A stretch of 64,000 nucleotides of DNA from Vulcanimicrobiota bacterium. GTDB taxonomy: Bacteria > Vulcanimicrobiota > CADAWZ01 > Ess09-12. The stretch is from contig JAVHLM010000002.1 in the NCBI GenBank assembly GCA_031082125.1, positions 239,012 through 303,011 on the forward strand, read 5' to 3'. The translations under genes were made by a program, and so were the position numbers. Shown here in pieces: positions 9,745 through 48,347 of the stretch (the first letter of the stretch is position 1; each line of letters opens with the position of its first letter). A model generated the notes under the pieces. It saw only the letters and a program-made list of their open reading frames with translations. It ran no database searches and was not told the origin of the DNA.

Positions 9745-10323
9745 TCATCCCTCCCTGCCGGAAAGCACGTTGTCGATTATGGCACCCCCTGCGGCAGTGA
9801 GAATGCTCTCAGGGTGAAACTGCACTCCCGTGACCGGCAGGCTCTGGTGTCGCACTGCCATTACAATGTCTTTCTTGCGCGCCGCCACTTCGAGGACCAG
9901 AGGGATCTCGAGGCCCGCGAGGGAATGGTAGCGCCCTACGGGGAGAGGTGAGGGAAGCCCTGAGAAGATCCCTTTCCCGTCGTGAGTGATGAGGGACGTT
10001 TTCCCATGGACGATCTCCCCGGCATGGCCCACTTTCCCTCCGAAGGCCTCGATCATGCACTGGAGGCCCAGGCAGACGCCGAACATGGGGACTTTCCCGG
10101 CGTAAGTCTTGATAAGGTCTATACTGCACCCGGCGTCACGGGGTGCCGAGGGCCCGGGGGAAAAGACCAGCAGATCGGGCGAAAATTCCCTGAAGAGGGC
10201 TTCATACTCATCCATGGCAAGGTTATTCCTGTATATTTTCACGAGGCAGCGGCGTTTTTCAAACTCGTCCACCAGGTTGTACGTGAAGCTGTCGAAATTG
10301 TCGATGAAGAGTATCTTTTTCAT
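9745..10323 (-). CDS. trpG: Anthranilate synthase component II (glutamine amidotransferase)
   Basis: 192 aa; class-I GATase motifs GVCLGLQ and catalytic H-x-E region (VQFHPES). Confidence 0.9.
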   Translation of the reverse strand: MKKILFIDNFDSFTYNLVDEFEKRRCLVKIYRNNLAMDEYEALFREFSPDLLVFSPGPSAPRDAGCSIDLIKTYAGKVPMFGVCLGLQCMIEAFGGKVGHAGEIVHGKTSLITHDGKGIFSGLPSPLPVGRYHSLAGLEIPLVLEVAARKKDIVMAVRHQSLPVTGVQFHPESILTAAGGAIIDNVLSGREG

Positions 10324-12931: not shown

Positions 12932-12961
12932 AAATAGCTCTCCGGAAAAATACTGCTTATG

Positions 12962-12990
12962 ATTATAGCCCTTCGGGCATGATCTGTCAA
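12962..12990 (-). promoter_or_regulatory. Predicted sigma-70-type promoter of the aroF-trp operon (TTGACA-17-TATAAT)
   Basis: Reverse strand reads TTGACAgatcatgcccgaagggcTATAAT, ending ~30 nt upstream of the aroF RBS; no leader peptide or attenuator between promoter and start. Confidence 0.55.
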
Positions 12991-13279
12991 TTTCCGACGG
13001 CAGGCGGCCTTCGCACCTGCCCCCTCCCGCGATGCTCAAAGTGCTTCAGACTCCGCAAGATTCTCATACTGCATAAGGGCGTCCAGAATGGGGCGGGTCA
13101 GCGCCTCGCCGTTTCCCTGCCCGGAGGTGATGGCTTTCCACAAAGTCTCGCGCGCCGTGGTCTCTGCCTTCTGATAGGGCTTGCTTTCCGGGTTTTCAAT
13201 GCCCCAGGCCTCACAAAAGGTATGGGTTGCCCGATTGGTGCCATTTTCTAAATATCGGAGTCTGTTCCCATTTTTCCCC

Positions 13280-28453: not shown

Positions 28454-28501
28454 CGGGAGCGAAGATAAATTTGCATTTTCTGTTATGAAATGAGGTGTAC
28501 T

Positions 28502-30346: not shown

Positions 30347-33115
30347 ATGGAGGCTTCATCACGCTATTCCATAGGGATTGACCTGGGCACCACCAACTCA
30401 TCGGTGGCCTATATCGACAGGAACTCGCGGGCGAAGAGGCGCCCCATCCAGTTCCTGGAGATCCCTCAGGTCGTGGCCGAGGGCGAGGTGGCCTCGAGGC
30501 TGCTCCTCCCCTCCTTTCTTTACTTTCCCCGCGAGTTTGAAGTCCCCCGGGAGCAGCTTGGCCTCCCCTGGGACAGCGAGCGTGATCATGTCATCGGGGA
30601 GTTCGCCCGCGCCCGTTCAGCACTAGTGGCCGGCCGCGTGGTCTCATCGGCGAAGTCGTGGCTTTGCCATGCCAAAGTGGACCGCAGGGCCCCCCTGCTC
30701 CCCTGGGGCTCACCGGAGGGAGAGCGCACCATCTCGCCTCTTGATGCCACGCGATGCTTTCTCTGTCACCTGAAGGAGGCCTGGAATCACGACATGGCAT
30801 CTCATGATGACGGAGCCCGCATGGAGCAGCAGGAGCTGGTCATCACCGTCCCCGCCTCTTTTGACGAAGCGGCGCGGGAGCTTACAGTGGAGGCAGCACG
30901 GACCTGCGGACTCTCAAGAATCATCCTGCTGGAAGAGCCTCAGGCAGCCTTTTATTCCTGGCTTTATTCCCATGAAGCCTCATGGAGGAGGAGCCTCAAG
31001 GGGCTCTCAGTCATCCTGGTCTGTGACGTGGGAGGGGGCACAAGCGATTTCACCCTGATCAGGGTGGAGCATGGCACCGACGACCTCTCCCTCAGGAGAG
31101 TCGCCGTAGGTGAGCATCTTCTTCTGGGCGGCGACAACATGGATCTTGCCCTGGCCCGCCATATGGAGAAGAAAGTCTTTCATGGCGAAAGGAAGCTTGA
31201 CAGCGCAGGGTGGTCCATGCTCTGCCAGCAATGCAGGAGCGCCAAGGAAAAGGCCTTCATGGAGAACCCGCCGCCCGAGTTTTCCCTCACCATCACAGGG
31301 CGGGGAAGCCGGCTCGTGGGAGGGGCCTCTTCTGCACTCATCACAAGGGATGAGGTGGTGAGCCTTCTGATGGAGGGCTTTCTTCCCGATGTCCTCTACG
31401 GTGAGCCTGTAATCTCTTCAAGGGGAGCGGGCCTCAAGGAGTGGGGCCTTCCCTACGCCAATGACCCTGCCATCACAAGGCACCTCTCGGAGTTCCTTCG
31501 GCACCATCTCCCCGGCAGTGAATTTCCCGACGCGGTGCTCTTCAACGGGGGAGCCCTCTCTCCCGTTGCGCTCCAGGAGCGGATCGTCAATATTCTGGAG
31601 AAATGGCGAGGCCCCGGTAATCCCCTCAGGATCCTTCCCAACCGGTTTCCCGAGCATGCCGTGTCAAGGGGCGCCGCCTATTTCGGGCTGGTGCGCACAG
31701 GCGAAGGGGTGCGCATCGGCGGCGGCACGCCGCGCTCGTACTATGTCGGCGTCGAGGTGGCCGACAGAGGCCGCGGGCTTCCTCCCCCCGGCACACAGGT
31801 ACTCTGCCTTGTCCCGAAGGATCTCCTCACGGAGGAGGTACAGGAGATCAGGGGGCATGAGTTCTCCCTGCTGCTGGGCCGCCCCGTGAGCTTTGCCCTG
31901 TTTTCCTCAACGCGCAGGGATGAAGATCTCCCGGGAGAGCTGCATCTCATCGATCCCGACGAGCTTGAAAAGCTCCCTCCCCTCTACACCGTCCTGTCCC
32001 ATGAAGGCACTGAAGGCGAGGTCCCTGTCCATCTCAGGGCCTGGATCACCGAAATCGGCACCCTTGAGCTCTGGTGCGTCTCCGAGGCTGAGCAGTGGAA
32101 GCTTCAATTTGCCCTCGCGGCGGGCCCTGCCGCCGCCGCAGAGAAAGGTGAAGAGCCGCCATCCCTGGCGCCATCCATAGCAAGGGATGCCAAGGAACTT
32201 GTGGCAGCGGCATTTCAGAAGAAAGGATCGCAGGAGGTGAAGCCCCGCGGCCTTCTCTCGGCTCTTGAAGAGATGACGCACGGGAAGCGCGAGCTCTGGC
32301 CCATGGCCTTTTCCAGGGAAATCGGGGATGCCGCCCTCCAGGTGGCGGGAAGAAGGAGGAGCACTCCCACCGCCGAGGCGAGCTGGTTCAATGTTGCAGG
32401 CTTTGCGCTTCGCCCGGGATTCGGCTACCCTCTTGACGAGTGGAGAATGGAAAAGGTGTGGTCTCTTTTTCCCCACTGGCTCCAGCACCACCGCGATCCT
32501 CAGTGCCGCCTTGAATGGTGGATTTTCTGGCGCCGCTGTGCAGGCGGTCTTGATGAGAAAGCTCAGGAGCAGATCTTTGACAGGGTGAGCCCTTACCTTT
32601 TCCCGGGGAGAAAGCACATCAGGACATTTCCCGGCCCTGCTCCCGTGCGCATTGAATTTCTCGAAATGATGAGGACGGCCTCATGTATTGAAAAAATTTC
32701 AGGACATGGCCGCTCCATGCTGGGCGACTATGTCCAGGCCCACCTGAAAAGCCATCCCGAAGCCGCCGACTGGTACTGGATGATTGCGCGGATAGGCTCC
32801 CGGATCCCCTTTGCTTCAGGTGCTGACAAGGTCCTTGCGCCTGAGACCGTATCCCCCTGGGTGGAGACCCTTGTCTCCCTCCCATGGCAGGGCTCCCAGG
32901 GAGCCTTTGCCCTTTCAAGGATTGCCCGCCTCACGGGCGACAGGGCCCGCGATATCGATGAGCCGCTGAGGATGGCGGCGGTAAAGAGGCTTCGGGCCTC
33001 GGGATGCGATGAAGAACTAATTGCGCCGCTCCTGGAGGTCGTGGAAGACAGGACTGCTGACCAGAGTATGGTCTTCGGCGAGTCACTCCCGCCGGGCCTT
33101 ACGGTAAAATCCTGA
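30347..33115 (+). CDS. Hsp70-family ATPase paralog with ~300-aa Trp-rich C-terminal extension
   Basis: 922 aa; SIGIDLGTTNSSVA, VPASFD, CDVGGGTSDFTL, SYYVGVE; same architecture as upstream paralog plus unique tail. Confidence 0.8.
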   Translation: MEASSRYSIGIDLGTTNSSVAYIDRNSRAKRRPIQFLEIPQVVAEGEVASRLLLPSFLYFPREFEVPREQLGLPWDSERDHVIGEFARARSALVAGRVVSSAKSWLCHAKVDRRAPLLPWGSPEGERTISPLDATRCFLCHLKEAWNHDMASHDDGARMEQQELVITVPASFDEAARELTVEAARTCGLSRIILLEEPQAAFYSWLYSHEASWRRSLKGLSVILVCDVGGGTSDFTLIRVEHGTDDLSLRRVAVGEHLLLGGDNMDLALARHMEKKVFHGERKLDSAGWSMLCQQCRSAKEKAFMENPPPEFSLTITGRGSRLVGGASSALITRDEVVSLLMEGFLPDVLYGEPVISSRGAGLKEWGLPYANDPAITRHLSEFLRHHLPGSEFPDAVLFNGGALSPVALQERIVNILEKWRGPGNPLRILPNRFPEHAVSRGAAYFGLVRTGEGVRIGGGTPRSYYVGVEVADRGRGLPPPGTQVLCLVPKDLLTEEVQEIRGHEFSLLLGRPVSFALFSSTRRDEDLPGELHLIDPDELEKLPPLYTVLSHEGTEGEVPVHLRAWITEIGTLELWCVSEAEQWKLQFALAAGPAAAAEKGEEPPSLAPSIARDAKELVAAAFQKKGSQEVKPRGLLSALEEMTHGKRELWPMAFSREIGDAALQVAGRRRSTPTAEASWFNVAGFALRPGFGYPLDEWRMEKVWSLFPHWLQHHRDPQCRLEWWIFWRRCAGGLDEKAQEQIFDRVSPYLFPGRKHIRTFPGPAPVRIEFLEMMRTASCIEKISGHGRSMLGDYVQAHLKSHPEAADWYWMIARIGSRIPFASGADKVLAPETVSPWVETLVSLPWQGSQGAFALSRIARLTGDRARDIDEPLRMAAVKRLRASGCDEELIAPLLEVVEDRTADQSMVFGESLPPGLTVKS

Positions 33116-33776: not shown

Positions 33777-36700
33777 ATGCTTGGAACGGTATTTATAGGA
33801 AGATACAAGGTAATAGAAGAACTCGGCCGCGGCGGCATGGGTATTGTCTACAGGGGAGAGGATCCTGCCCTGGAGAGGCCTGTCGCCATCAAGGTACTTC
33901 CCCCCAAGAAGCTTTCACAGAAAAAAGCCATCAAGCGTTTTCTCCGTGAGGCCCGAGTCTCGGCGCGCCTTGATCACCCCAGGATTGTCAAGATCTATGA
34001 CATCGGCGAGGAAGAGGGCATCTACCACATTGTCATGGAGTACGTGTCGGGGAAGGGGCTGCGCGATCTCATCGAGGAGCGCGAGAGTGTCGGGCAGATC
34101 GACATAGACGACATGACGCGCCTTTTCAAGCAGATATGCCAGGCCATCGAGTATGCCCACAGCCTGAAGATTGTGCACCGTGACATCAAGCCGGAAAACA
34201 TCATGGTGACCACCGAGGGGAATGCCAAGGTCATGGACTTCGGCCTTGCCGTCCTCGAGGACCGCCATTCAATCACCGAGATGGGCGCCGTAATGGGGAC
34301 GATAGCCTATTTCTCCCCTGAGCAGGCCCGCGGTGAGCCTGCCGATCACCGTGCCGATATCTACTCGCTCGGCGTGGTATTCTACGAGATGCTCACTAAC
34401 GCGCTTCCCTTTGAGGCTACCAACCCCTCGGACATGATCCAGAAGCATCTCCAGGCGCTTCCCCTCTCGCCTGTCAAGCGGAACCCCTCGGTGCCGCCCC
34501 TCCTGGAGAGCCTTATCCTGAAGTGCCTCCGCAAGCTCCCCGACGACCGTTATGGTGACGTCTCCGAGCTGACAGCCGAGCTTTCGCGCTACATCCGCTC
34601 AAGGGAGAAGCAGAAGGAAGAGCCTCGCCCTGAAGCGCTGGCGCCGGAGCCTGTCCAGGGGCCGCCTCCCAAGGTTGAATGGCCCTTTTCTCCCCCTCAG
34701 AGTGACTCTGTGCCCCACGTCCATTACCAGCCGCCACGGGAAATGGAGCACCTGGCCACTCCCCAGGGAGAGGAGGAAGAGGACGAGGGGCCTGTTCCCG
34801 AGCTTCCTCATCATCTGATCCCGCCCGAGGAGGCCGATGGCAGGGCCTTTCACCCCGCGGACATACCGGCCCAAACACCTCCACCCGCCGAAGCGCCGCC
34901 CGGGCAGAAATTCCAGCCGGTTGCAGGAACAACTCCCCTTGCGAGTCCTCAATGGATGATGGAGGCCAAGGAGGAAGCCGAGCAGGATCGCTACCAGGCC
35001 TTCATGGACAAGCTCAGGCGCGATGCCGCTGTCCGCTCCCATGCCACTGAAATGGAGGTGGCACCCACGCCTGCCGCCGTGGTATGCGCCAAGTGCGGCC
35101 TTGAGAACACGGGAGACAAGAAGTACTGTGTGGACTGCGGGAGCCTTCTCGCCCCCAGCTACTTTGTCGCTGCCCGCGAGGCGATCCATCACAATGACCA
35201 GGGGGTCATCTACTTTGAGGAGGGCCAGCTTGAGAGGGCTCTCTTCGAGTTCCAGCAGGCTCTTGCCCGCGATCCCGACATGGCCGAGGCGCGCTTCAAC
35301 ATTGCAAGGGTCTATCTGGAAAGGGGGGAGTTTGAAAAGGCTTTCGAGGCTTTCAGGGAATTCTCCCATCTTCAGCCAGACAACCCCCAGCCCTATCTTT
35401 ACCTGGCCGATATTTACCGGAAGCAGGATCGGAAGGATCTTGCCATCAACGAGTACATTAAGGCCATCAAGCTCAATCCCTCAGACGCGGCGGTGCGCTG
35501 CCAGCTCGCTTTCCTCTATTCCCAGCAGGGTGCCCTTCCCCAGGCCATCCAGGAATACAGAGTGGCCCAGAACATTGACCCCGAGAATATTGAGGCTCAC
35601 CGCCAGCTCGGCTTCATCTATGCGGGCCTCGAGCAGGTTGATGACGCCATAAGGGAGTTCGAGTGGGTCGTGAAGCTCGACCCCGGCAACCAGCAGGCTT
35701 ACACGTGGCTGGGAAACCTTTATACGAAGCGCCGTCGCTATGGCAATGCCGAGAAGGTCTATACCATGGCCCTCTCCCTCAACCCTGCCGATGCCGGCAT
35801 TCATGCCCAGCTTGGCGGCCTCTACGAGATGCAGAACAGGGAGGAGCTCGCCTTCCAGTCGCTCTTCCGGGCTGTCTCCATCGACCAGGGAAATGCCGAG
35901 GCCAGGACCAGGCTTGCCGATCTCTACCTGAAGCACCACCAGCCCCAGATGGCCGTCAAGGAGCTTGAGGCCGTCGTCACCCACCACCCCAACGATCTGA
36001 AGATCCACCAGCAGCTCGGTGAGCTCTATCTTCATCTCAACAAGTTTGATGAGGCCCTCGATCACTTTGAGAAAACAGTGAACCTCTCGCCGGGGACTGC
36101 CGACCTTCACAACAAGCTGGGAAGACTCTATCTGAAGAAGGACTTCAACCAGCTCAGCATCCTGGAATACCAGAAGGCCGTGAGTCTCGATCCCTGCAAC
36201 CCCGAGTATCATGAGGATCTTGGAATGGCCTACTACTGCCAGAACAGGAATGATATGGCCATCCAGGAGCTCAGGAAGGCCGTCACCCTTGACAGTCGGA
36301 ACGTCGATTACTACAAGGCGCTTGGCGTGATGCTCGAAGAGGAGGGCCGTCTCGACGAGGCCATAAAGATGCTGAAAAAGGCCCAGGAGATGGACAGGAA
36401 GGATCCCATGATCCATGCCCTCATGGGGAAGGTCTATTTCTCCCAGGGCCTGATGAACATGGCCATCTTCGAGTACCAGAAGGCCCTTGAGCTCCAGCCC
36501 ACCAATTACCTCTTCCATATCTACATGGCCAAGGCCTATTCCCGCCAGGAGAAGGTTGACGCCGCAATCGAGGCATTCAGGAAAGCGATTGAGCTCATGC
36601 CGGGCGCCCGAGGCGCGGAATACAACATCGTGATGGGGAAAGCCTATGTCGATCTTGGCAAGGCTTACCTGGATAAGGGCGATCTCAACCTTGCAAAGGA

Positions 36701-37301
36701 AGTGCTCCTTACGGCATACAAGCTCACCCCGCAGAATGCCAGGGTCTCCCATTACCTGGGGATCATATTCCTGGGCCTCAAGGACTTCAAGAACTCGCTG
36801 CACTATATCTCGGAGGCTCTCAACCTTGAGCCCAACAATGCCGATATCATGGCGGACCTGGGGAACCTTTACCTCGCCCGGGGCGACATTGAGCTCGCTA
36901 TAAGGGCTTTCAGGAGATCCATTGATCTCTCGCCTGACAGGTTTGATGTCTACGAGCTGCTCACCATGGTCCTCACCAGGGCCGGAAAGTTCTCAGATGC
37001 TGTCGAGGTGCTCCGCTCTGCGAAGGAACTCAATCACTCGCAGGCCGATCACTATCACTGGCTTATCGGAGGCCTTTTCCTGAAGCTCAAGGACCCGGAG
37101 AGCGCACGGGAGGAGTTCACGAGAGCCATCGCGATAAACAACAGGAACTGGAATTACTACTTTGATCTCGGCGGGGCATACCGCCTTCTCAACCGCAACG
37201 AGGAGGCATTCAGGGAGCTTGAGACGGCCTTCAGCCTCTGCAAGGACAAGAAATCCTCGGAGCTCATCATGGCAGAGCTTAAAAAGATAAGGGTGCGGTG
37301 A
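33777..37301 (+). CDS. Serine/threonine protein kinase with zinc-ribbon and >15 C-terminal TPR repeats
   Basis: 1174 aa; Hanks kinase motifs GRGGMGIVY, AIK, HRDIKPEN, DFG; Pro-rich linker; CAKCG ... CVDCG zinc ribbon; long array of 34-aa TPR units. Confidence 0.85.
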   Translation: MLGTVFIGRYKVIEELGRGGMGIVYRGEDPALERPVAIKVLPPKKLSQKKAIKRFLREARVSARLDHPRIVKIYDIGEEEGIYHIVMEYVSGKGLRDLIEERESVGQIDIDDMTRLFKQICQAIEYAHSLKIVHRDIKPENIMVTTEGNAKVMDFGLAVLEDRHSITEMGAVMGTIAYFSPEQARGEPADHRADIYSLGVVFYEMLTNALPFEATNPSDMIQKHLQALPLSPVKRNPSVPPLLESLILKCLRKLPDDRYGDVSELTAELSRYIRSREKQKEEPRPEALAPEPVQGPPPKVEWPFSPPQSDSVPHVHYQPPREMEHLATPQGEEEEDEGPVPELPHHLIPPEEADGRAFHPADIPAQTPPPAEAPPGQKFQPVAGTTPLASPQWMMEAKEEAEQDRYQAFMDKLRRDAAVRSHATEMEVAPTPAAVVCAKCGLENTGDKKYCVDCGSLLAPSYFVAAREAIHHNDQGVIYFEEGQLERALFEFQQALARDPDMAEARFNIARVYLERGEFEKAFEAFREFSHLQPDNPQPYLYLADIYRKQDRKDLAINEYIKAIKLNPSDAAVRCQLAFLYSQQGALPQAIQEYRVAQNIDPENIEAHRQLGFIYAGLEQVDDAIREFEWVVKLDPGNQQAYTWLGNLYTKRRRYGNAEKVYTMALSLNPADAGIHAQLGGLYEMQNREELAFQSLFRAVSIDQGNAEARTRLADLYLKHHQPQMAVKELEAVVTHHPNDLKIHQQLGELYLHLNKFDEALDHFEKTVNLSPGTADLHNKLGRLYLKKDFNQLSILEYQKAVSLDPCNPEYHEDLGMAYYCQNRNDMAIQELRKAVTLDSRNVDYYKALGVMLEEEGRLDEAIKMLKKAQEMDRKDPMIHALMGKVYFSQGLMNMAIFEYQKALELQPTNYLFHIYMAKAYSRQEKVDAAIEAFRKAIELMPGARGAEYNIVMGKAYVDLGKAYLDKGDLNLAKEVLLTAYKLTPQNARVSHYLGIIFLGLKDFKNSLHYISEALNLEPNNADIMADLGNLYLARGDIELAIRAFRRSIDLSPDRFDVYELLTMVLTRAGKFSDAVEVLRSAKELNHSQADHYHWLIGGLFLKLKDPESAREEFTRAIAINNRNWNYYFDLGGAYRLLNRNEEAFRELETAFSLCKDKKSSELIMAELKKIRVR

Positions 37302-39608: not shown

Positions 39609-39723
39609 CAGGGCATTGCATAATGGGCCATAAAGAGGTATCATAGAGAGGGACAGAGGAATTTTGGGGCATGTATTGAATATTCTGGAAATTGCGAGAT
39701 ATTCTGAAGGGGAGGCTCATACC

Positions 39724-40821
39724 ATGAAAAAGATCTTGTTATATGCAGGCTGTGTCATCGTGCTCATAGCCCTGCTATCACCCCTGGTGATGGCGGCGGA
39801 TCCGGTATATGATCAGGAGTGGACCATTTACGTGAGGAACAGGGAGCTCCAGGCACCCTTTCAGCTCACGGGCGGGAGATTCTTCGTTCCCCTCTCCCCG
39901 CTCCTTGATGCCCTCAAATACAGCTGCTCGCAGGGCGATGACGGGGTGATCACGATAAACTCAACGCCCGGTGCGACGGGCGGCGTGACGATAAGCGGGG
40001 GGCGTGCCACTTTTGCTTATGGCGACAACAAGTTCAGCGTCAACGTGATGATGACGAGAGGGGAGAATTATGTCGAGCTCGCCACCTTCGCGAGAAATAT
40101 CGGATTGGGTGTCGTAAGCAACAATGACACGGGCATCGTTGATGTGGTGGTGCCCCAGGGTATTTCGGCCAAGGATTTTGAGAAGGAGCACAACCTTGCG
40201 GTGCTGAAGGGGAACGCCGAGGCCTCCGAGGCAGACAACACCGTGGGCGGTACCTATGCCACCATAGACAAGGGCCCCGGTTCCGACGCCACGTCACAGG
40301 GACTTGACACGAGCGGCCCCAAGGCTACCACGGCAGCTGCAACCGGCGCCGGCCCCGGCCAGTCGGTGGACCAGGGCCCCAAGACCTCCACGGCAAGCTC
40401 AACGGCGGAGCCCGGAGCGAAAACGGGCCAGAGTGCTGCAGCCACCACATCCGCCACGACGCAGAAAGGCAAGGAAGAGGAATCGCCTATCAAGCAGGTC
40501 GGAGATTTAGGCGGATTTGCCGACACGAGGACCTGGAACTGCTGGTGGAATGCCACCCTGAAGAACACCGGGGAGGATACGGTCAACAACGTCATTGTCA
40601 CGCTCCATATACAGGACGGCTACGGCAAGGATTTTGACACGCAGATCAAGCCCATCGGAAACATGCGGCCCGGCGACATTTCAAAGGTGGATTTCACCTG
40701 GATGAACAAGAGCAGGCTCAATGTATTTCCCAAGCTGGAGATCAAGCACGATCCCCTTCCCAAGAAAGAGGAAACCCCTGCGGGGCAGCAGCAGGTCAAG
40801 CCCGTGGTGAAGCCAAAGTAA
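39724..40821 (+). CDS. Hypothetical secreted protein with Thr/Ala/Gly-rich low-complexity linker
   Basis: ATG 39724 after GAAGGGGAGG RBS; signal peptide MKKILLYAGCVIVLIALLSPLVMA; central TTAAATGAGPGQ low-complexity segment. Confidence 0.55.
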   Translation: MKKILLYAGCVIVLIALLSPLVMAADPVYDQEWTIYVRNRELQAPFQLTGGRFFVPLSPLLDALKYSCSQGDDGVITINSTPGATGGVTISGGRATFAYGDNKFSVNVMMTRGENYVELATFARNIGLGVVSNNDTGIVDVVVPQGISAKDFEKEHNLAVLKGNAEASEADNTVGGTYATIDKGPGSDATSQGLDTSGPKATTAAATGAGPGQSVDQGPKTSTASSTAEPGAKTGQSAAATTSATTQKGKEEESPIKQVGDLGGFADTRTWNCWWNATLKNTGEDTVNNVIVTLHIQDGYGKDFDTQIKPIGNMRPGDISKVDFTWMNKSRLNVFPKLEIKHDPLPKKEETPAGQQQVKPVVKPK

Positions 40822-41402: not shown

Positions 41403-42365
41403 ATGAAAGTCTTGTTTTTCGGCTCCGAGGATTTTTCCATTCCGGCGCTGCGCATGCTCTCGGAAGGACCCCATGAGGTGGTGGCTGTGGTGACGCAGCC
41501 CGACAGGAAGAAGGGCCGGGGTCACCAGGAGAGCGGGACGGAAGTGGCGGAATACGCTCATTCCCGCGGGATTCCCCTCCTCAAGCCGGAGAAACTGAAG
41601 GATCCGGGATTTCTGGAGACTTTGAAGGATCTGGCGCCGGATCTTGTGGTGGTCTGCGCCTATGGCAAGATCCTCAGGCAGAGGGTGCTCGTCTGCCCTC
41701 GCCTGGGATGCATAAATGTCCATCCTTCCCTTCTTCCCCGATACCGTGGCGCCACACCCATCGAGGCCGCCCTGAGGTCCGGTGACACGATAACGGGCGT
41801 CACGATCTTTTACATGGACGAGGGATGTGACACGGGAGATATAATTGTACAGAAACAGTATCCAATCGGGCCTGATGATACAAGAGGCTCCCTCAGGGAG
41901 AAGCTTTCCCATTTTGCCACAGGAGTGCTCGGGGAAGCCCTTGAACTGATCAGCGAGGGAAAGGCACCGCGGTGCCGCCAGACCGATGAAGGGGTCTGCT
42001 GCACCGCTCTGATAGAAAAGGAGGACACCTTCATAGACTGGTCGCTTCCGGCAGAGAACCTGGTCAATTTCACAAGGTCCCTCTGGCCGAGACCCTCGGC
42101 TCAAACTCTGTTCCGCGGGAAGCTGCTCAAGGTGGCTCCTCTGTCAATGGCTCCTGTCAGTCATGGGGGGACGGCACGGCCGGGGGAGATACTCGAGGTG
42201 AGGAAGAATGAAGGACCCCTTGTGGCGACGGGAAAAGGGGTAGTGAAACTGGGAGAGGTGAAGCCTGAGGGAAAGAAGCTGATGACGGCATGGCAGTTTT
42301 CCCTTGGCTACAGTCCAAGGGCAGGCGAGAGCTTTTCGCTGCCGGAGGGGTGCCCTTCCCTTTAG
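41403..42365 (+). CDS. fmt: Methionyl-tRNA formyltransferase
   Basis: 320 aa; N-terminal formyltransferase motifs (MKVLFFGSEDFSIPAL, INVHPSLLPRYRG) and C-terminal domain. Confidence 0.9.
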   Translation: MKVLFFGSEDFSIPALRMLSEGPHEVVAVVTQPDRKKGRGHQESGTEVAEYAHSRGIPLLKPEKLKDPGFLETLKDLAPDLVVVCAYGKILRQRVLVCPRLGCINVHPSLLPRYRGATPIEAALRSGDTITGVTIFYMDEGCDTGDIIVQKQYPIGPDDTRGSLREKLSHFATGVLGEALELISEGKAPRCRQTDEGVCCTALIEKEDTFIDWSLPAENLVNFTRSLWPRPSAQTLFRGKLLKVAPLSMAPVSHGGTARPGEILEVRKNEGPLVATGKGVVKLGEVKPEGKKLMTAWQFSLGYSPRAGESFSLPEGCPSL

Positions 42366-42390
42366 AGGGGCCATAAAAAGGAGGAAATAT

Positions 42391-43398
42391 ATGCGAAACC
42401 GTATTCTCTGCATCATCGCAATCCTGGTGCTGTGCGCAGCCCTGGCGGGAGGCTGCGCCTGGGCCAGTGATGATGAGAAAGGACTCACCAACTGCTCCAC
42501 CCACATGAACACTCTGGTGCAGGCAATAGAGCTCTGGGCCAACGATCACAGGGGAAATTTCCCCACGAAAGAGGAGTTCTCAAGCCCCCGGTTCCTGGAG
42601 TACGTGAAAAAGGTGAAAGGGGGCTTTGCGAAAAAGGAGGTCTGCTGCCCCGTCTCAGCCAGGCCCTATCTCTATCAGTCCCTTCCCCTCCAGAAGAGCT
42701 ACGTGATCAAGTGCCCCACACCCGAGATGCATGGACTCGCGTCTTTCTATTACTCCCGCGACAAGATGTTTGTCAAAGGGAAAAAGGTGCCGGTTGCAAA
42801 GAAGCCTTCCGGCACTTCTCCCGTCGCGGCGGCAGCTCCCACACCCGCGGCCACTGTAAGTGCAAAACCTTCCCCTTCCCCCTCGGCCAAGGTGAGCGCA
42901 AAGCCCACCCCTTCTCCCACGGCTTCACCTGCTGCGGTCAAAAAGCCGGGGAAGACTGAATCTCCCGAGCACCAGGATGTGCTGAAGGAAGACAGGGAGA
43001 AGATTATCACCGTCATCACGGCCCTCTATAATGCCTATTCCGAGAAGAACCTCGACAAGATAATGGAGCTTGAAAAGGAGTCCATCGAAGCATCAGCCAC
43101 CGATTACGAGAAGAAGGGAAAAGGGCCGGCCCAGGAAGTGAGGGAGGCCTTTAAGAGCGCCACGAAGGAAATAATAGAGCACAAGGATTTCAAGATGCTT
43201 CCCCTCAACATGAGCGATCTGACCTTCCAGAAAAGGGGAAAGTTCGTCAAGGTCACGAGCGTAGTACCCATCATAGCCACCGAGAGGCTCGAGGTCATGG
43301 AGGAGGGGAAATACTTTTTCGTGAGACTCCGGATAGGAGAGCTTGTCTTTGACCAGCGCTCTGACGGATGGAAAATTGTCAACATGTATCTTTACTGA
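42391..43398 (+). CDS. Hypothetical lipoprotein with Pro/Ser/Ala-rich linker
   Basis: ATG 42391 after AAAAGGAGG RBS; lipobox LAGGC; linker SAKPSPSPSAKVSAKPTPSPTASP encoded by imperfect DNA repeats; globular C-terminal domain. Confidence 0.55.
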   Translation: MRNRILCIIAILVLCAALAGGCAWASDDEKGLTNCSTHMNTLVQAIELWANDHRGNFPTKEEFSSPRFLEYVKKVKGGFAKKEVCCPVSARPYLYQSLPLQKSYVIKCPTPEMHGLASFYYSRDKMFVKGKKVPVAKKPSGTSPVAAAAPTPAATVSAKPSPSPSAKVSAKPTPSPTASPAAVKKPGKTESPEHQDVLKEDREKIITVITALYNAYSEKNLDKIMELEKESIEASATDYEKKGKGPAQEVREAFKSATKEIIEHKDFKMLPLNMSDLTFQKRGKFVKVTSVVPIIATERLEVMEEGKYFFVRLRIGELVFDQRSDGWKIVNMYLY

Positions 43399-43440: not shown

Positions 43441-43470
43441 GGAGGGGAACAGCGACTCCCCTCTTTTTTT
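43441..43470 (+). terminator. Predicted intrinsic terminator after def-fmt-lipoprotein genes
   Basis: GC stem gagggg ... cccctc with 10-nt loop followed by 7 T residues. Confidence 0.55.
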
Positions 43471-43526
43471 CCCGGCCGGCCTGGCTCCCTGAAAGCCATG
43501 GGTGCAGGTGAGTGGATCTCAAGGGA

Positions 43527-44591
43527 ATGGACCTCCGGGAGCTTGAGGAGTTTTTTATCGTGCTCGGTGAGGAAGCCTACCGCGGGAAGCAGATGATGAA
43601 ATGGCTCTATGGCAAGGGAGAAAGCAACTTTGCCGCCATGACTGATTACGGCAGGGAGCTTCGCGGGCGCCTCTCTGAGGCAGCCTCCATCGGTCAGCTG
43701 AAGGTAGTCACACGGCAGGTGTCGTCTGACGGTGACGCCGAGAAGTATCTTTTTGCCCTCGCTGATGGCCATCTTGTCGAGAGTGTCCTTATGAGCTACG
43801 AGGATCACCTTGGTCCCTCGAGGATGACCGCCTGTATCTCCACGCAGGTGGGATGCGCCATGGGATGCACCTTCTGCGCTTCATCAATCGGGGGATTCGT
43901 GAGAAACCTCACCGCCGGCGAGATAGTGGACCAGGTGCTCCAGATCCAGAAAGAGATAGCCTCCCGCCAGGTGAGGGTCGCCAATGTGGTGATGATGGGC
44001 ACGGGAGAGCCCCTCCTCAATTATGACCATGTGATGAAAGCCGTGAGGATCCTGAACCATCCCGACGGGATTGCCATCGGGGTGAGGCATATCGCCATAT
44101 CGACCTGCGGCATAGTCCCCGGGATTGAAAGGCTTGCCACCGAGGGCATGCAGGTAAAGCTTGCCGTGTCCCTTCACAGCGCCAATGACGAGGTGAGGAG
44201 CTCCCTGATGCCGGTCAACAGGAAGTATCCCCTTGCGAGGCTCATGGAGAGCCTCCAAAATTACCAGAGGATGACGGGAAGGCGTGTCACCATAGAGTAT
44301 GCCCTTATCAGGGGCGTGAATGACGGGGTTCATGATGCCATAGCCCTCCGTGAGCTCCTCAGGGGCCTTACTGCGCTCATCAACCTCATACCCCTCAATC
44401 CTGTCGCGGAGTTTTCTTGCCAGAGAAGCAGAGATGACTCCGTGGAGCGTTTCAAGAAGGTGATGGATGAGGCGGGAATCAGGACCACCGTGAGAAAGGA
44501 GCGGGGCGTCGATATAGACGCGGCCTGCGGCCAGCTCAGAAAAAAGGCGCGAGCGGCAGAAGGATGCCATGGAATACCTGAGAAAGCTTGA
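43527..44591 (+). CDS. rlmN: 23S rRNA/tRNA adenine-C2 methyltransferase RlmN (radical SAM)
   Basis: CxxxCxxC radical-SAM motif in GCAMGCTFCAS; conserved N-terminal GEEAYRGKQ; ATG 43527 (track ORF begins at GTG 43512). Confidence 0.85.
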   Translation: MDLRELEEFFIVLGEEAYRGKQMMKWLYGKGESNFAAMTDYGRELRGRLSEAASIGQLKVVTRQVSSDGDAEKYLFALADGHLVESVLMSYEDHLGPSRMTACISTQVGCAMGCTFCASSIGGFVRNLTAGEIVDQVLQIQKEIASRQVRVANVVMMGTGEPLLNYDHVMKAVRILNHPDGIAIGVRHIAISTCGIVPGIERLATEGMQVKLAVSLHSANDEVRSSLMPVNRKYPLARLMESLQNYQRMTGRRVTIEYALIRGVNDGVHDAIALRELLRGLTALINLIPLNPVAEFSCQRSRDDSVERFKKVMDEAGIRTTVRKERGVDIDAACGQLRKKARAAEGCHGIPEKA

Positions 44592-45279
44592 AAAGAGTCT
44601 TGAGCACCTCATAGAGGGAAGGATACTTGACCATTTCCAGGATGGCATCCACCCCATGGAGGTGGCAAAAAAGCTTGCCTCCATGATGAGGGAAGAGAAG
44701 CGCCTCATCCTGCAGAAATGTTACGGGCCCAATCATTACGTCATATCTCTCTCAGGGGAGGATTACCATGAGTTTTCCCGCCTTATGGCCACATTCAGGG
44801 GGGAGCTGGTACAGTTTCTCGCCATGGAGGCAGAAGATCTCGATCTTTCCTTCCTTGGCCCTCTTGGCGTTGAGCTTCATGAGGAGGGCTCTGTCAAAAG
44901 AGGCTTTGTAAAGCTCTCCTGCTCCTACACCTCGGGGGAGTCTGTCAAGGAGGGGGGGGCATCGCTCCAGGTGATCAGGGCCGTGCTTGCCGTCAAGGAA
45001 GGCTTCGGCAAGGGGAAGATTTACCCTCTCCTGGCAAGCGCAGTGACCCTCGGGCGCTCAGAGGATAACAGCATCATCATAAGCGATCCCAAGGTGTCGT
45101 CCCTTCACTGCAGGATAGAGCTGCAGGGCGACGAGTTTGTTTTAAAGGACATGGACAGCAGGAATGGCGTGGAGATTAACAGGAAGCCTGCCACAGGGGC
45201 GGTGCTCAGGGACAGGGATGAGATCGCTCTCGGTTATTCGATCCTCCAGTTCTTCAGGCTTTCCACCCAGTCCTTGTAG
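44569..45279 (+). CDS. FhaA-like protein (DUF3662-type N-domain plus C-terminal FHA domain)
   Basis: 236 aa; N-terminus MEYLRKLEKSLEHLIEG resembles FhaA; C-terminal FHA signature GRSEDNSIIISDPKVSSLHCRI ... SRNGVEIN. Confidence 0.7.
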   Translation: MEYLRKLEKSLEHLIEGRILDHFQDGIHPMEVAKKLASMMREEKRLILQKCYGPNHYVISLSGEDYHEFSRLMATFRGELVQFLAMEAEDLDLSFLGPLGVELHEEGSVKRGFVKLSCSYTSGESVKEGGASLQVIRAVLAVKEGFGKGKIYPLLASAVTLGRSEDNSIIISDPKVSSLHCRIELQGDEFVLKDMDSRNGVEINRKPATGAVLRDRDEIALGYSILQFFRLSTQSL

Positions 45280-45287
45280 GCGGGGAG

Positions 45288-46151
45288 GTGACTGCTTCAA
45301 CCATGGGAGAGTTAAGGGAGTTCTGGAAGAAGTACCGCAGAAACAGGCTTGCCGTGGCGGGCTTCCTTGTCATTCTGCTGATGGTTCTGGTTGCCCTTAC
45401 CTGCGGGCTCTATTCCCCCTATCCTCCCGATCGTCAGGATCTGAGCTTTGAAGGGGTTCCCCAGCCTCCCGGGGGCGCTCATCTCTTCGGCACTGACAAC
45501 TACGGGAGAGATGTTTTCAGCAGGGCCCTCTACGGCACGAGGATATCACTCCTTGTGGGCATCCTGGCCGTTTCCCTCTATATGCTGATAGGCATTCTGC
45601 TCGGCTCTTTCGCAGGCTATTACGGGGGGTGGGTTGACGGCCTCATCATGCGCGTCGTTGACGTGATGCTCTCCATTCCCACTTTTTTCTTTATCCTGGC
45701 CATCCAGGTGCTCCTCTCCCCCTCGGTGTTCAACGTGATAGTAGTAATCGGCCTCACCAGCTGGGCGGGGCCCACAAGGCTCGTGAGGGGACAGGTCCTG
45801 GCTCTCAAGGAGACGGCCTTCATCGAGGCGGCAAGGGCCTGCGGAGCCTCGGACTCCCATATTATTTTCAGGCATATCATCCCCAACTGTCTTGCCCCTG
45901 TCATTGTCATGGCAACGCTTGGAGTTGCGGGGGCCATCCTCACGGAATCGGTGCTGAGTTTTCTTGGCCTTGGTGTGCAAGAGCCCCAGGCAAGCTGGGG
46001 AAACATGCTTATGAGAGCCCAGGAATACATCTCCACTGCGCCATGGATGGCCCTTTACCCCGGCGTGCTCATCATGCTCACCGTGCTTTCCTTTAATTTT
46101 ATGGGCGAAGGCATCAGGGATGCCGTTGATCCCAAGATGAAGCTCCAGTGA
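45288..46151 (+). CDS. ABC transporter permease, DppC/OppC type, orphan
   Basis: 287 aa (GTG 45288; alternative ATG 45303); six TM segments and EAA-like loop (ETAFIEAARACGASD); no DppB, ATPase or peptide-binding SBP adjacent. Confidence 0.75.
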   Translation: MTASTMGELREFWKKYRRNRLAVAGFLVILLMVLVALTCGLYSPYPPDRQDLSFEGVPQPPGGAHLFGTDNYGRDVFSRALYGTRISLLVGILAVSLYMLIGILLGSFAGYYGGWVDGLIMRVVDVMLSIPTFFFILAIQVLLSPSVFNVIVVIGLTSWAGPTRLVRGQVLALKETAFIEAARACGASDSHIIFRHIIPNCLAPVIVMATLGVAGAILTESVLSFLGLGVQEPQASWGNMLMRAQEYISTAPWMALYPGVLIMLTVLSFNFMGEGIRDAVDPKMKLQ

Positions 46152-46176
46152 GGTCCCCCGTGAGGTCCCCCGTGAG
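46148..46176 (+). repeat. Tandem 12-nt direct repeat (GTGAGGTCCCCC x2 plus partial)
   Basis: gtgaggtcccccgtgaggtcccccgtgag starting at the permease stop codon. Confidence 0.6.
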
Positions 46177-46266
46177 TGAACAGGACTATGGGGGGATATA
46201 TGGAATACCTAAAGGTCCGGAATGAACCTTCCCCCTCATCACAAGAGAGCAAGGAGAACGCACGCA

Positions 46267-46896
46267 ATGCCAGTGCATGTCACAAGCCACCCCATGATCC
46301 AGCATAAGCTCACCGTACTGCGCAGGAAAGAGACGCCACCGAAAGATTTCAGGGAGCTTGTCGTGGAGATTACCACCTGCATGGCTTATGAAGCCACCAG
46401 GGAGTTTCACCTCAGGGAGGTGGACATAGAGACGCCGCTCATGAAGGCGCGCCTGAAGGGTGTCATTGAGAACGGCATCATCATCATGCCGATTCTCCGC
46501 GCAGGCCTGGGTATGGTAGACGGGATGCTGCGCCTCTTCCCTGATGCCCGCGTGGGCCATATAGGGATTTACCGCGAGCACGACACCCTCAAGCCTGTTG
46601 AATACTACTGCAAGTTTCCCCAGGAAATGGAAGGCGACGCCATCTTCCTTATCGATCCCATGCTTGCCACGGGGGGCTCGGCCTGCGCCGCCATTGAGTT
46701 CATGAAGACCAGGGGAATTCCGGGCTCCCGTATAAAATTCCTCTGCATCCTTGCCGCGCCGGAAGGTGTGGCGGCAGTGGAGGAGGCCCACCCCGATGTG
46801 GATATCTATGTCGCTGCCATTGACAGCCGCCTCAATGAGCAAGCCTATATCCTGCCCGGCCTCGGAGATGCCGGCGACAGGATGTTCGGCACTTAA
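46267..46896 (+). CDS. upp: Uracil phosphoribosyltransferase
   Basis: 209 aa from ATG 46267; PRPP-binding motif IFLIDPMLATGGS; N-terminus collinear with E. coli Upp. Confidence 0.9.
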   Translation: MPVHVTSHPMIQHKLTVLRRKETPPKDFRELVVEITTCMAYEATREFHLREVDIETPLMKARLKGVIENGIIIMPILRAGLGMVDGMLRLFPDARVGHIGIYREHDTLKPVEYYCKFPQEMEGDAIFLIDPMLATGGSACAAIEFMKTRGIPGSRIKFLCILAAPEGVAAVEEAHPDVDIYVAAIDSRLNEQAYILPGLGDAGDRMFGT

Positions 46897-46928
46897 GAGC
46901 ACCGCAAGGAGCACCGAAGGAGGTACTT

Positions 46929-48347
46929 ATGGATCTTGTGATAAAAAATGGAATGATAGTGATGGCCACCGACACTTTCAAGGGTGATATCGCCATCAGG
47001 GGGGGGAAGATCGCTGCCCTCACGCAGGGCGTTCACCTCGAGGCCAGGGAGGAGATCGACGCTGAAGGAATGCTTGTCCTTCCCGGCGTGATTGACGGCC
47101 ATACGCATTTCTCCGATCCTGCGGGAGGTCTCCTCACGTCCGATGATTTTCTCTCGGGAAGCAGGGCCTGTGCTGCCGGCGGTGTCACGACTTTTATAGA
47201 CTGTGCCGTCCAGGAGAAAGGGCAGTCTCCCCTTGAAGCCCTCAAAATGCGCCGCAGCGAGGCACAGACCCATGCCTATGTGGACTATGCTCTCCATATG
47301 GCTTTTACCGATTTTTCCGAGGGCACGCTGAAGGACATACCAAAGCTCATAGAGGCGGGCGTCCCCACTTTCAAGCTCTTCATGGGACTGGGAAAGGCTG
47401 CCTGGATGGCTGATGACGGGGCTCTCATCACCATGCTCGAGCAGGCAAGGGACCAGGGCGCCCTTATAGGCATTCATGCAGAGAACCACCACCTTGTGGA
47501 GAGGAACAGGGCACTTCTCCTCAGGGAGGGGAAGAGAGAGCCCCGGTGGCACTCCGTGTCGTCCCCCCACTACGTGGAGGTCGAAGCCCTCAGGAGAGCC
47601 CTCTACCTTACGGAGGTAACCAACAGCCGTCTCTTTGTCTTTCACCTCACCACTGCCGAGGGGACGCGCCTCGTGGGCGAGGCCAAGGGAAAGGGAATGA
47701 TGGTTTTTGCCGAGACTTGCCCCCAGTACCTGCTGCTCTCGGATGAAAAGCATGAAGGTCCCGAGGGTCTTCACTTCGTGGCAAGCCCGCCGCTCAGGAA
47801 GGCAATTGACAATGAGATACTCTGGCGGGGCATCTCGGTAGGGGCCATCCAGGTCGTCTCTTCGGACCACTCCCCCTTCACGAGGGCTCAGAAGAGCTCG
47901 GCAGGCAGCGATTTTACCTCCGTGCCTCCCGGTCTTCCAGGCGTGGAGACCCTTCTCTCCCTTCTTTACTCAGAAGGAGTGAAAAAGGGGAGGATCACGG
48001 CAAGCCAGATGGTGGAGATCGTCTCGGCAAACCCTGCCAAGCTCTTCGGGCTCTATCCGTCAAAGGGGAGCCTGGCTCCCGGTGCAGACGCCGACGTGGT
48101 CATCTTTGATCCTGCAGCACAAAAAACCCTTCGTGCCGCTGATCTTCACATGAACACCGATTTTTCCCCCTATGAGGGCATGGAAGTCATCGGGGTGCCC
48201 CTTACGACCCTCTCCCGGGGAGAGATAATATTCAAGGACGGAGCCTTTCCCGCCTCTCCCGGCCGCGGCATGTTCCAGGAAAGGCATTACCGCGAGCAGG
48301 AATGGGAGGCCAGATCCTTTGCCCATGGCGGGGAAAGGAGTCGATAG
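46929..48347 (+). CDS. Cyclic amidohydrolase (dihydropyrimidinase / hydantoinase-like)
   Basis: 472 aa; metal-binding GVIDGHTHF; length and motif spacing fit dihydropyrimidinase rather than dihydroorotase. Confidence 0.7.
   Translation: MDLVIKNGMIVMATDTFKGDIAIRGGKIAALTQGVHLEAREEIDAEGMLVLPGVIDGHTHFSDPAGGLLTSDDFLSGSRACAAGGVTTFIDCAVQEKGQSPLEALKMRRSEAQTHAYVDYALHMAFTDFSEGTLKDIPKLIEAGVPTFKLFMGLGKAAWMADDGALITMLEQARDQGALIGIHAENHHLVERNRALLLREGKREPRWHSVSSPHYVEVEALRRALYLTEVTNSRLFVFHLTTAEGTRLVGEAKGKGMMVFAETCPQYLLLSDEKHEGPEGLHFVASPPLRKAIDNEILWRGISVGAIQVVSSDHSPFTRAQKSSAGSDFTSVPPGLPGVETLLSLLYSEGVKKGRITASQMVEIVSANPAKLFGLYPSKGSLAPGADADVVIFDPAAQKTLRAADLHMNTDFSPYEGMEVIGVPLTTLSRGEIIFKDGAFPASPGRGMFQERHYREQEWEARSFAHGGERSR

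What the first reader, a model, noticed from the sequence alone, without database searches (positions are those of the whole stretch)
44569..46151. FhaA-like FHA protein followed by an orphan DppC/OppC-type ABC permease
Seen: a DUF3662-plus-FHA protein (overlapping the rlmN 3' end) is followed 9 nt later by a single DppC-type permease; there is no DppB partner, ATPase or peptide-binding protein anywhere nearby. Established: Dpp/Opp permeases function as DppB/DppC heterodimers with two ATPases. Inference: the permease may be a remnant, may pair with subunits encoded elsewhere, or may be a phospho-regulated membrane partner of the FHA protein.
Basis: partly seen in the sequence, partly recalled or inferred. 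Interest (0 to 1): 0.4.

Follow-up and report, generated by a model that had tools for sequence, protein, structure and literature searches.

The report
Split-up peptide transporter permease beside FHA gene
The lone OppC-type permease is an intact, strongly conserved half of a peptide-type ABC importer whose OppB partner gene sits alone elsewhere in the same genome, and the FHA gene beside it looks like a neighbour in a housekeeping gene block, not a shown partner.

Summary
Window 44569-45279 encodes a short FhaA_N(DUF3662)+FHA protein that overlaps rlmN by 23 nt. Window 45288-46151 encodes an intact OppC/DppC-type permease. No OppB, binding protein or ABC ATPase lies anywhere in the 64 kb.

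The permease is not a remnant. Its EAA coupling loop is intact, it aligns end to end with E. coli DppC, and its dN/dS is 0.02-0.06.

A solitary oppC downstream of rlmN is conserved in a clade of Eremiobacterota/Xenobia relatives (66-81% identity). By contrast, 72 of 76 more distant homologues have oppB adjacent.

The missing partner exists. The same MAG encodes an OppB (MDQ7821596.1) on another contig, 265 accession numbers from OppC (MDQ7821861.1). Its orthologues are solitary in all four contexts examined, one in the same assembly as a solitary oppC. The OppB and OppC trees mirror each other.

The FHA gene lies between rlmN and oppC in five loci, always inside the same priA-def-fmt-rlmN block. 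It is absent from two loci that keep oppC. It evolves much faster than oppC, and OppC shows no FHA-linked phospho-acceptor segment.

Verdict: a dispersed but otherwise ordinary Opp-type importer next to a common short FhaA-like phosphothreonine reader. The gene organisation is mildly unusual; overall interest is low.

The parts
43512..44591 (+). rlmN (radical-SAM 23S rRNA/tRNA methyltransferase). It is the first gene after a terminator-like hairpin and the conserved upstream neighbour of the solitary oppC.
   Evidence: TIGR00048 RlmN scores 419 bits against a cut-off of 290. Pfam gives RlmN_N and Radical_SAM. rlmN lies directly upstream of FHA or oppC in L001, L002, L004, L006, L007, L090 and L091.
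44569..45279 (+). Short FhaA-like protein: an FhaA_N/DUF3662 domain, a linker of about 30 aa and a C-terminal FHA (phosphothreonine-binding) domain.
   Evidence: Pfam PF12401 scores 72 bits and PF00498 60.6 bits. The pThr-binding residues G162-R163, S177, H180 and N199-G200 are invariant among orthologues. The FHA domain matches GarA/OdhI/FhaA structures. NCBI names it 'DUF3662 domain-containing protein', MDQ7821860.1. dN/dS is 0.10-0.18.
45288..46151 (+). Solitary OppC/DppC-type ABC importer permease (transmembrane subunit). The alternative start is the ATG at 45303.
   Evidence: Pfam gives OppC_N and BPD_transp_1. NCBIfam Opp4C scores 347.9 against a cut-off of 350. It aligns over its full length with E. 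coli DppC 8z1v_B at E = 3e-70, with the EAA loop 'IEAARACGAS...IIPNCLAP' intact. dN/dS is 0.02-0.06.
46222..46896 (+). upp (uracil phosphoribosyltransferase), a frequent downstream neighbour of the solitary oppC and probably in the same transcription unit.
   Evidence: Pfam UPRTase scores 257.8 bits. upp follows oppC in L001, L004, L006 and L007. No terminator-like site lies between oppC and upp.
43441..43464 (+). Terminator-like GC-rich hairpin followed by a T-run, upstream of rlmN. It probably marks the 5' boundary of an rlmN-fhaA-oppC-upp unit.
   Evidence: The consensus scan finds 8 pairs, 5 of them G-C, with the tail TTTTTTCCCG. This is a pattern match only.
33777..37301 (+). Hanks-type Ser/Thr kinase with a TPR array, directly upstream of priA. 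It is a candidate source of phosphothreonine ligands for the FHA protein.
   Evidence: Pfam Pkinase scores 194 bits alongside many TPR families. An orthologous kinase lies upstream of priA in the FHA-less L004 as well, so it is not specifically linked to the FHA gene.

Best explanation
The permease is a working transmembrane subunit of an Opp/Dpp-type (peptide/nickel family) ABC importer whose genes have been scattered around the chromosome in this Eremiobacterota (class Xenobia-like) lineage. OppC is made from a housekeeping transcription unit, rlmN-(fhaA-like)-oppC-upp. Its heterodimer partner OppB is made from a separate solitary gene elsewhere (MDQ7821596.1 in this MAG). The two ATPases and the binding protein are presumably also encoded elsewhere, as they already are in many related oppABC loci. 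The subunits assemble in the membrane as in any OppBCDF transporter.

The FhaA-like protein is a common short DUF3662+FHA phosphothreonine reader that belongs to Hanks-kinase signalling. It is tightly coupled to rlmN. Its position next to oppC most likely reflects shared residence in a conserved gene block, not a dedicated partnership.

Shown: domain identities, intact motifs, purifying selection, conserved solitary arrangement of both oppC and oppB, co-occurrence in two genomes, and mirrored trees. Inferred: physical B/C pairing, co-transcription, unlinked ATPases and binding protein, and the substrate class.
For: 1. OppC is intact and canonical: Pfam and NCBIfam matches, full-length alignment to solved DppC/OppC with the EAA coupling loop conserved, and 54-58% identity to OppC proteins in ordinary operons.

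2. Purifying selection is strong. dN/dS is 0.041 (L003-L091, dS 0.39) and 0.064 (L009-L010, dS 0.28), at or below the rlmN value of 0.073.

3. A solitary oppC after rlmN is conserved in the window, L001, L002/3, L004=L008, L006/7, L090 and L091. The family baseline is 72 of 76 loci with oppB adjacent.

4. The closest canonical relative is L005 (SBP-oppB-oppC; OppC 63% identical). Its OppB retrieves P0146 = MDQ7821596.1 from 'Candidatus Eremiobacteraeota bacterium' on a 595,159-bp contig. Accessions in this MAG run in gene order (…857 fmt, …860 FHA, …861 OppC, …865 ClpB), so P0146 is from the same submission, 265 genes away and on another contig.

5. Orthologues of P0146 are solitary in all four contexts examined. 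P0156 lies in GCA_031551355.1, the same assembly as L004's solitary oppC.

6. NJ trees of OppC and OppB both show a solitary clade with two subclades, sister to the clade of adjacent B-C pairs that includes L005. The OppB EAA motif is intact.

7. No terminator-like site lies between rlmN, FHA, oppC and upp, and one lies just upstream of rlmN.

8. FHA side: orthologues are only 42-45% identical where OppC is 74-81%. The FHA gene is absent in L004 and L006/7, where rlmN abuts or overlaps oppC. FHA-oppC gaps are 111-171 nt in L001-L003 against 8 nt here. Short DUF3662+FHA proteins of 215-260 aa are numerous.
Against: The ATPases and the substrate-binding protein were not located, because the rest of the MAG could not be read. 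A complete transporter is therefore not demonstrated.

The same-genome assignment of OppB rests on accession numbering and organism label, not on the assembly record.

The trees are unbootstrapped NJ trees.

A second group of solitary OppC genes (L009-L011) sits in another context, and its partner was not sought.

The FHA-oppC adjacency does persist across lineages with saturated dS, and possibly in two more inferred from matching contig lengths (P0243/P0003 and P0247/P0012). A functional link therefore cannot be excluded.
Confidence: 0.72

Rival explanations
1. The FhaA-like protein and OppC form a functional pair. The FHA domain docks on a phosphothreonine, either on the permease or on an associated protein, that is written by the nearby Hanks kinase. 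In this way it tethers or gates the transporter, by analogy with FhaA-MviN or the FHA-regulated ABC transporter Rv1747 in mycobacteria.
For: FHA lies directly upstream of oppC in five independent loci with saturated synonymous divergence, and possibly in two more. In the window the gap is only 8 nt. A Hanks kinase lies 7 kb upstream. The precedents are in the literature: FhaA-MviN (PMC11898655) and the Rv1747 FHA domains (PMC8339232; PDB 6cah hit).
Against: All FHA+ loci share the whole priA-def-fmt-rlmN block, so adjacency is not independent evidence. L004 and L006/7 keep oppC without FHA. FHA is coupled to rlmN by overlap, and is separated from oppC by more than 100 nt in the relatives. OppC has only a cytoplasmic N-tail of about 20 aa, with no Thr conserved in the FHA+ subclade. 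The only FHA+-specific Thr is at position 214, inside a hydrophobic segment. The kinase is also present in the FHA-less L004.
Confidence: 0.1
2. The solitary OppC works without OppB, either as a homodimeric permease with shared ATPases or in a non-transport role.
For: There is no oppB within 10 kb in any member of the clade. Homodimeric TMDs exist in other type I ABC importers (general knowledge).
Against: A matching clade of solitary OppB genes co-occurs in the two genomes that could be tested, and it mirrors the OppC tree. No Opp/Dpp-family transporter is known to use a C-C homodimer (own knowledge). Only a dozen positions distinguish solitary from canonical OppC, and all are conservative substitutions.
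Confidence: 0.06
3. The permease is a decaying remnant of a broken opp operon.
For: It has no partner genes in 64 kb, and it scores just under the NCBIfam Opp4C cut-off (347.9 against 350).
Against: The reading frame is intact and full length, all motifs are present, dN/dS is 0.02-0.06, and the gene keeps its position across lineages down to 66% identity.
Confidence: 0.02

Closest known systems
E. coli DppBCDF / OppBCDF and M. tuberculosis OppABCD / DppABCD (PepT family type I ABC importers; PDB 8z1v, 8z21, 8j5q, 8wd9)
   Same: The window protein aligns with the DppC/OppC subunit over its full length (E = 3e-70 to 1e-52). It has the same OppC_N + BPD_transp_1 architecture and a conserved EAA coupling loop.
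   Different: In those organisms the B, C, D and F genes, and usually A, form one operon. Here oppC and oppB are each solitary at unrelated loci. The ATPases and the binding protein were not found, and the substrate is unknown (no NCBIfam equivalog cut-off reached).
oppA-oppB-oppC locus without ATPases in an Armatimonadota-labelled MAG (L005, GCA_043814095.1) and similar loci in Chloroflexota, Thermodesulfovibrio and other Eremiobacterota
   Same: These are the closest canonical relatives (OppC 63%, OppB 60% identical to the proteins of the window's MAG). They already show ATPase genes unlinked from the permease genes.
   Different: B and C are still adjacent and are preceded by the binding-protein gene.
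Mycobacterial FhaA (Rv0020c)
   Same: It has an N-terminal FhaA_N/DUF3662 domain and a C-terminal FHA domain with the canonical pThr-binding residues.
   Different: The mycobacterial protein has an unstructured linker of about 300 aa and sits in the fhaA-fhaB-pstP-rodA-pbpA-pknA-pknB cluster (PMC11898655; cluster order from own knowledge). The window protein is 236 aa with a linker of about 30 aa, and it sits after rlmN. It belongs to the widespread short form that NCBI names 'DUF3662 and FHA domain-containing protein'.
Bacillus subtilis priA-def-fmt-rsmB-rlmN-prpC-prkC neighbourhood (own knowledge of that genome)
   Same: It has the same housekeeping backbone, priA-def-fmt-(x)-rlmN, followed immediately by a Ser/Thr-phosphorylation signalling gene.
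   Different: Here the signalling gene after rlmN is an FHA reader, not the PP2C phosphatase/PASTA kinase pair. The kinase (STK+TPR) lies upstream of priA, and an ABC permease gene is inserted after the FHA gene.

Membership tests
Opp/Dpp (PepT-family) ABC importer, C-type permease subunit | OppC_N N-terminal TM domain plus BPD_transp_1 domain | tested here: met
   PF12911 scores 49 bits (cut-off 23.9) and PF00528 scores 114.6 bits (cut-off 26.4).
Opp/Dpp (PepT-family) ABC importer, C-type permease subunit | EAA coupling loop that contacts the ATPase, and full-length similarity to solved C subunits | tested here: met
   Residues 3-280 align with E. coli DppC 8z1v_B residues 18-299 at E = 3e-70. 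The 'FIEAARACGAS...FRHIIPNCLAP' loop is conserved.
Opp/Dpp (PepT-family) ABC importer, C-type permease subunit | A specific equivalog (substrate-level) assignment by NCBIfam | tested here: not met
   The best match, Opp4C, scores 347.9 bits against a cut-off of 350. GsiD, NikC and DppC score far below their cut-offs. The family is assigned; the substrate is not.
Opp/Dpp (PepT-family) ABC importer, C-type permease subunit | Heterodimer partner OppB/DppB encoded in the same operon | tested here: not met
   There is no OppB in the 64 kb, nor within 10 kb in the orthologous loci. A candidate partner is encoded elsewhere in the same MAG (MDQ7821596.1).
Opp/Dpp (PepT-family) ABC importer, C-type permease subunit | Two ATPases (OppD/OppF) and an SBP_bac_5 binding protein present in the genome | not testable with these tools
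   They are absent from the window.
FhaA-like (DUF3662 + FHA) proteins | FhaA_N/DUF3662 N-terminal domain | tested here: met
   PF12401 scores 72 bits (cut-off 25) over residues 4-115, covering 113 of 115 profile positions.
FhaA-like (DUF3662 + FHA) proteins | C-terminal FHA domain with the pThr-binding residues (G-R, S-x-x-H, N-G) | tested here: met
   PF00498 scores 60.6 bits. G162, R163, S177, H180, N199 and G200 are invariant in the orthologue alignment. The domain matches GarA/OdhI/FhaA FHA structures.
Mycobacterial FhaA (Rv0020c) orthologue | Disordered linker of about 300 aa, and the fhaA-fhaB-pstP-rodA-pbpA-pknAB context | tested here: not met
   The protein is 236 aa with about 30 aa between its domains. 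Its neighbours are rlmN and oppC. NCBIfam gives only sub-threshold FHA-domain hits to FhaB and OdhI.

The most novel reading that the evidence does not exclude
In this Xenobia-like lineage a peptide-type ABC importer has been fully taken apart at the gene level. oppC has been wired into a translation-related housekeeping operon behind rlmN, together with an FhaA-like phosphothreonine reader. It would be a new mode of ABC-importer control through a stand-alone FHA adaptor.
Probability: 0.08. Interest if true: 0.6.

Novelty: new variant of a known kind. Interest (0 to 1): 0.25.

Why it matters
The finding explains an apparent orphan: both proteins are ordinary members of well-known families. The one unusual point is organisational. 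The B and C permease genes of an Opp-type importer are each kept as solitary genes at unrelated loci across a whole lineage, whereas about 97% of the homologues examined keep them adjacent.

This matters mainly for annotation and for metabolic reconstruction of uncultured Eremiobacterota. Operon-based rules would score this transporter as incomplete or absent. It also warns against reading gene adjacency inside a large syntenic block as evidence of functional coupling.

Tried and rejected
Exact look-ups of the window's own OppC (both starts) and of the MAG's OppB in the contig index returned nothing. The rest of the MAG therefore could not be inventoried, and the ATPases and binding protein were not located.

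The word-indexed homologue search with the FHA protein returned only itself. The metagenome scan with the FHA alignment gave just two loci.

The exhaustive HMMER search showed that the short DUF3662+FHA architecture is common, but it carries no genomic context.

I looked for a Thr-rich or FHA+-specific cytoplasmic segment in OppC and found none.

My first inference was that FHA was gained once in the window's subclade. It was weakened when a FhaA-like protein (P0247) turned up on a contig of the same length as that of P0012, a basal member of the 'FHA-less' subclade. The polarity of gain versus loss is left open.

The ATPase reference I first picked for locus annotation was MlaF-like. The count of loci with adjacent ATPases (28 of 76) is therefore a lower bound.

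A literature search for solitary or orphan OppC found nothing relevant.

Structure prediction was not run. Only single-chain, single-sequence input was allowed, and it would not test B/C or FHA/OppC pairing.
Full report
**Observation**

- Window 44569-45279 (+) encodes 236 aa. It has an FhaA_N/DUF3662 domain (residues 4-115; 72 bits against the Pfam cut-off of 25) and an FHA domain (159-222; 60.6 bits). Its ATG lies 23 nt inside the 3' end of rlmN, which spans 43512-44591 (TIGR00048, 419 bits).
- Window 45288-46151 (+) encodes 287 aa from a GTG. NCBI annotates 282 aa from the ATG at 45303 (P0001 = MDQ7821861.1).
- The second ORF matches OppC_N and BPD_transp_1. Its best NCBIfam match is Opp4C at 347.9 bits, just under the cut-off of 350.
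- Eight bases separate the FHA stop from the GTG.

The whole 64 kb holds no second BPD_transp_1 permease, no SBP_bac_5 protein and no ABC ATPase.

- tblastn finds only the permease itself.
- No ORF combines Walker A with the ABC signature; the only Walker A sites are in ClpB and PriA.
- Pfam scans of the large ORFs find no ABC component.

The local gene order is: Ser/Thr kinase with TPR repeats, priA, X1, def, fmt, X2, rlmN, fhaA-like, oppC, upp, dihydropyrimidinase, amylase-like, clpB.

**Is the solitary state unusual?**

It is. A scan of one genome per species with the permease returned 80 loci. I annotated them by tblastn. Of the 76 loci at 56% identity or less:

| State | Loci |
|---|---|
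| oppB directly adjacent | 72 |
| oppC at a contig edge | 2 |
| oppB after the binding-protein gene | 1 |
| no oppB | 1 |

Many of these loci lack adjacent ATPases. ATPase unlinking is therefore common; B/C unlinking is not.

**The permease is not a remnant**

- It aligns over its full length with E. coli DppC (8z1v_B, E = 3e-70), E. coli OppC and the M. tuberculosis OppC and DppC subunits. The EAA coupling loop is conserved.
- Nei-Gojobori dN/dS is 0.041 for L003-L091 (dS 0.39) and 0.064 for L009-L010 (dS 0.28).
- These values are at or below the rlmN value of 0.073.

**Conserved context**

Contig look-ups for its closest homologues, plus one metagenome scan, give the following.

| Locus | OppC identity to window | Context |
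|---|---|---|
| L001 | 81% | priA-X1-def-fmt-X2-rlmN-FHA-oppC-upp-amidohydrolase |
| L002/L003 | 76% | …rlmN-FHA-oppC |
| L090, L091 | 78%, 74% | priA-X1-def-fmt-X2-rlmN-FHA-oppC |
| L004 = L008 (Candidatus Xenobia, GCA_031551355.1) | 69% | …rlmN-oppC-upp-amylase-clpB, no FHA |
| L006/L007 | 66% | def-fmt-X-rlmN-oppC-upp, no FHA; rlmN overlaps oppC |
| L009-L011 (Vulcanimicrobiota) | 62-63% | solitary oppC in a different neighbourhood |
| L005 (Armatimonadota-labelled) | 63% | SBP_bac_5-oppB-oppC, no ATPases; nearest canonical relative |

An unbootstrapped NJ tree places the rlmN-linked solitary genes in one clade with two subclades. That clade is sister to a clade of adjacent B-C pairs that includes L005.

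**Where the partner is**

- The OppB of L005 retrieved P0146. It is 60% identical, labelled 'Candidatus Eremiobacteraeota bacterium', with accession MDQ7821596.1, on a 595,159-bp contig.
- Accessions of this MAG run in gene order through the window: trpA …833, fmt …857, FHA …860, OppC …861, dihydropyrimidinase …863, ClpB …865, DnaB …873.
- P0146 therefore comes from the same submission, 265 genes away from OppC and on a different contig. This is an inference from the numbering and the organism label.

The orthologues of P0146 (70-82% identity) are solitary in every context examined.

| OppB orthologue | Neighbours |
|---|---|
| P0138 | Laminin_G_3 / PAP2 |
| P0144 | Laminin_G_3 / GAF |
| P0168 | HIT / type II secretion |
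| P0156 | shikimate genes / serpins |

P0156 lies on contig 1 of GCA_031551355.1. That is the same assembly whose contig 41 carries the solitary oppC of L004.

The OppB NJ tree reproduces the OppC topology: a solitary clade with two subclades, sister to the adjacent-pair clade. The OppB EAA motif is intact.

The simplest reading is that the ancestral oppABC locus was broken up once, and that both permease genes have been kept as partners since. The ATPases and the binding protein could not be sought, because the MAG's own records were not retrievable.

**The FHA protein**

- Its pThr-binding residues (G162-R163, S177, H180, N199-G200) are invariant among orthologues.
- The FHA domain matches GarA, OdhI and FhaA structures.
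- It is a short form, with about 30 aa between the domains. Mycobacterial FhaA has a linker of about 300 aa (PMC11898655).
- An exhaustive HMMER search found 26,398 FHA-containing representatives at E ≤ 1e-3. Among the best 150 are dozens of 215-260-aa proteins that match end to end at 28-43% identity.
- NCBI names one of these 'DUF3662 and FHA domain-containing protein'.
- It evolves much faster than its neighbours: 42-45% identity where OppC keeps 74-81% and RlmN 64-69%. It is still under purifying selection, with dN/dS of 0.10-0.18.

**Is FHA functionally tied to OppC?**

Four points argue against a functional tie.

- The adjacency always sits inside the same larger syntenic block.
- Two lineages keep oppC without the FHA gene.
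- FHA is coupled to rlmN by overlap, whereas FHA-oppC gaps are 111-171 nt in the relatives.
- OppC has only a cytoplasmic N-tail of about 20 aa, with no conserved Thr specific to the FHA+ subclade.

In Bacillus subtilis the priA-def-fmt-rsmB-rlmN block is followed by prpC-prkC (own knowledge). A Ser/Thr-signalling gene after rlmN therefore has precedent without any transporter. Here the Hanks kinase lies just upstream of priA, and it is also present in the FHA-less L004. I rate a dedicated FHA-OppC partnership at about 10%.

**Transcription**

A terminator-like hairpin with a T-run lies at 43441-43464, between X2 and rlmN. The scan found no such site in the junctions between rlmN, FHA, oppC and upp. 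This fits an rlmN-fhaA-oppC-upp unit, but it rests on a pattern scan only.

**Verdict**

Both proteins are ordinary family members. The only unusual feature is the lineage-wide dispersal of the oppB and oppC genes. Interest is low to moderate, at 0.25.

Noticed in passing
window 39664-40821 and 42304-43398 (+): Two proteins with no Pfam or NCBIfam family, apart from a sub-threshold Cu_amine_oxidN1 hit in X1. X1 lies between priA and def; X2 lies between fmt and rlmN, where rsmB sits in Bacillus. Both have hydrophobic N-termini and low-complexity P/A/S/T-rich linkers. Both are kept in the same positions in L001, L002, L004, L090 and L091 at 24-53% identity.
   Followed up: partly
window 28490-30322 and 30347-33115 (+): Two tandem Hsp70-like genes. 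The second carries a C-terminal DUF3731 ('DNA-K related protein') domain. They lie just upstream of a small ORF and the STK-TPR kinase.
   Followed up: no
window 33777-37301 (+): A 1174-aa Hanks-type Ser/Thr kinase fused to a long TPR array, directly upstream of priA. The arrangement is conserved in the Xenobia MAG locus L004.
   Followed up: partly
window 14974-17313 (-): A membrane CHASE2 sensor fused to a SpoIIE/PP2C-type phosphatase domain. It is another Ser/Thr-phosphorylation component in the window, about 27 kb from the FHA gene.
   Followed up: no
window 46222-48347 (+): upp is followed by a gene that NCBI names dihydropyrimidinase (MDQ7821863.1). This pyrimidine-salvage pair lies directly after oppC here and in L001. 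upp alone follows oppC in L004 and L006.
   Followed up: partly
window ~46151-46176 (+): A perfect tandem duplication of a 12-nt unit (GAGGTCCCCCGT x2) starts at the oppC stop codon, in the 70-nt oppC-upp spacer.
   Followed up: no
L009, L010, L011 (OppC at L010 9947-10837): A second, separately branching group of solitary OppC genes in Vulcanimicrobiota MAGs, in a different context. The order is STK+AAA_16, DUF4428, subtilase, ferredoxin, divergent YkuD L,D-transpeptidase, oppC, a 1024-aa protein, YqeC, XdhC. Its partner genes were not sought.
   Followed up: partly
L002 8105-9829: In this long-read contig rlmN is split into two fragments and the FHA gene is truncated, relative to the near-identical short-read contig L003. 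This is probably indel error in the assembly and not real pseudogenes.
   Followed up: no
window 5923-13039 (-): A complete trpEGDCBA operon followed by a DAHP synthase with an N-terminal ferredoxin-like domain. In the related MAG the solitary oppB (L088) sits beside shikimate-pathway genes, probably by coincidence.
   Followed up: no
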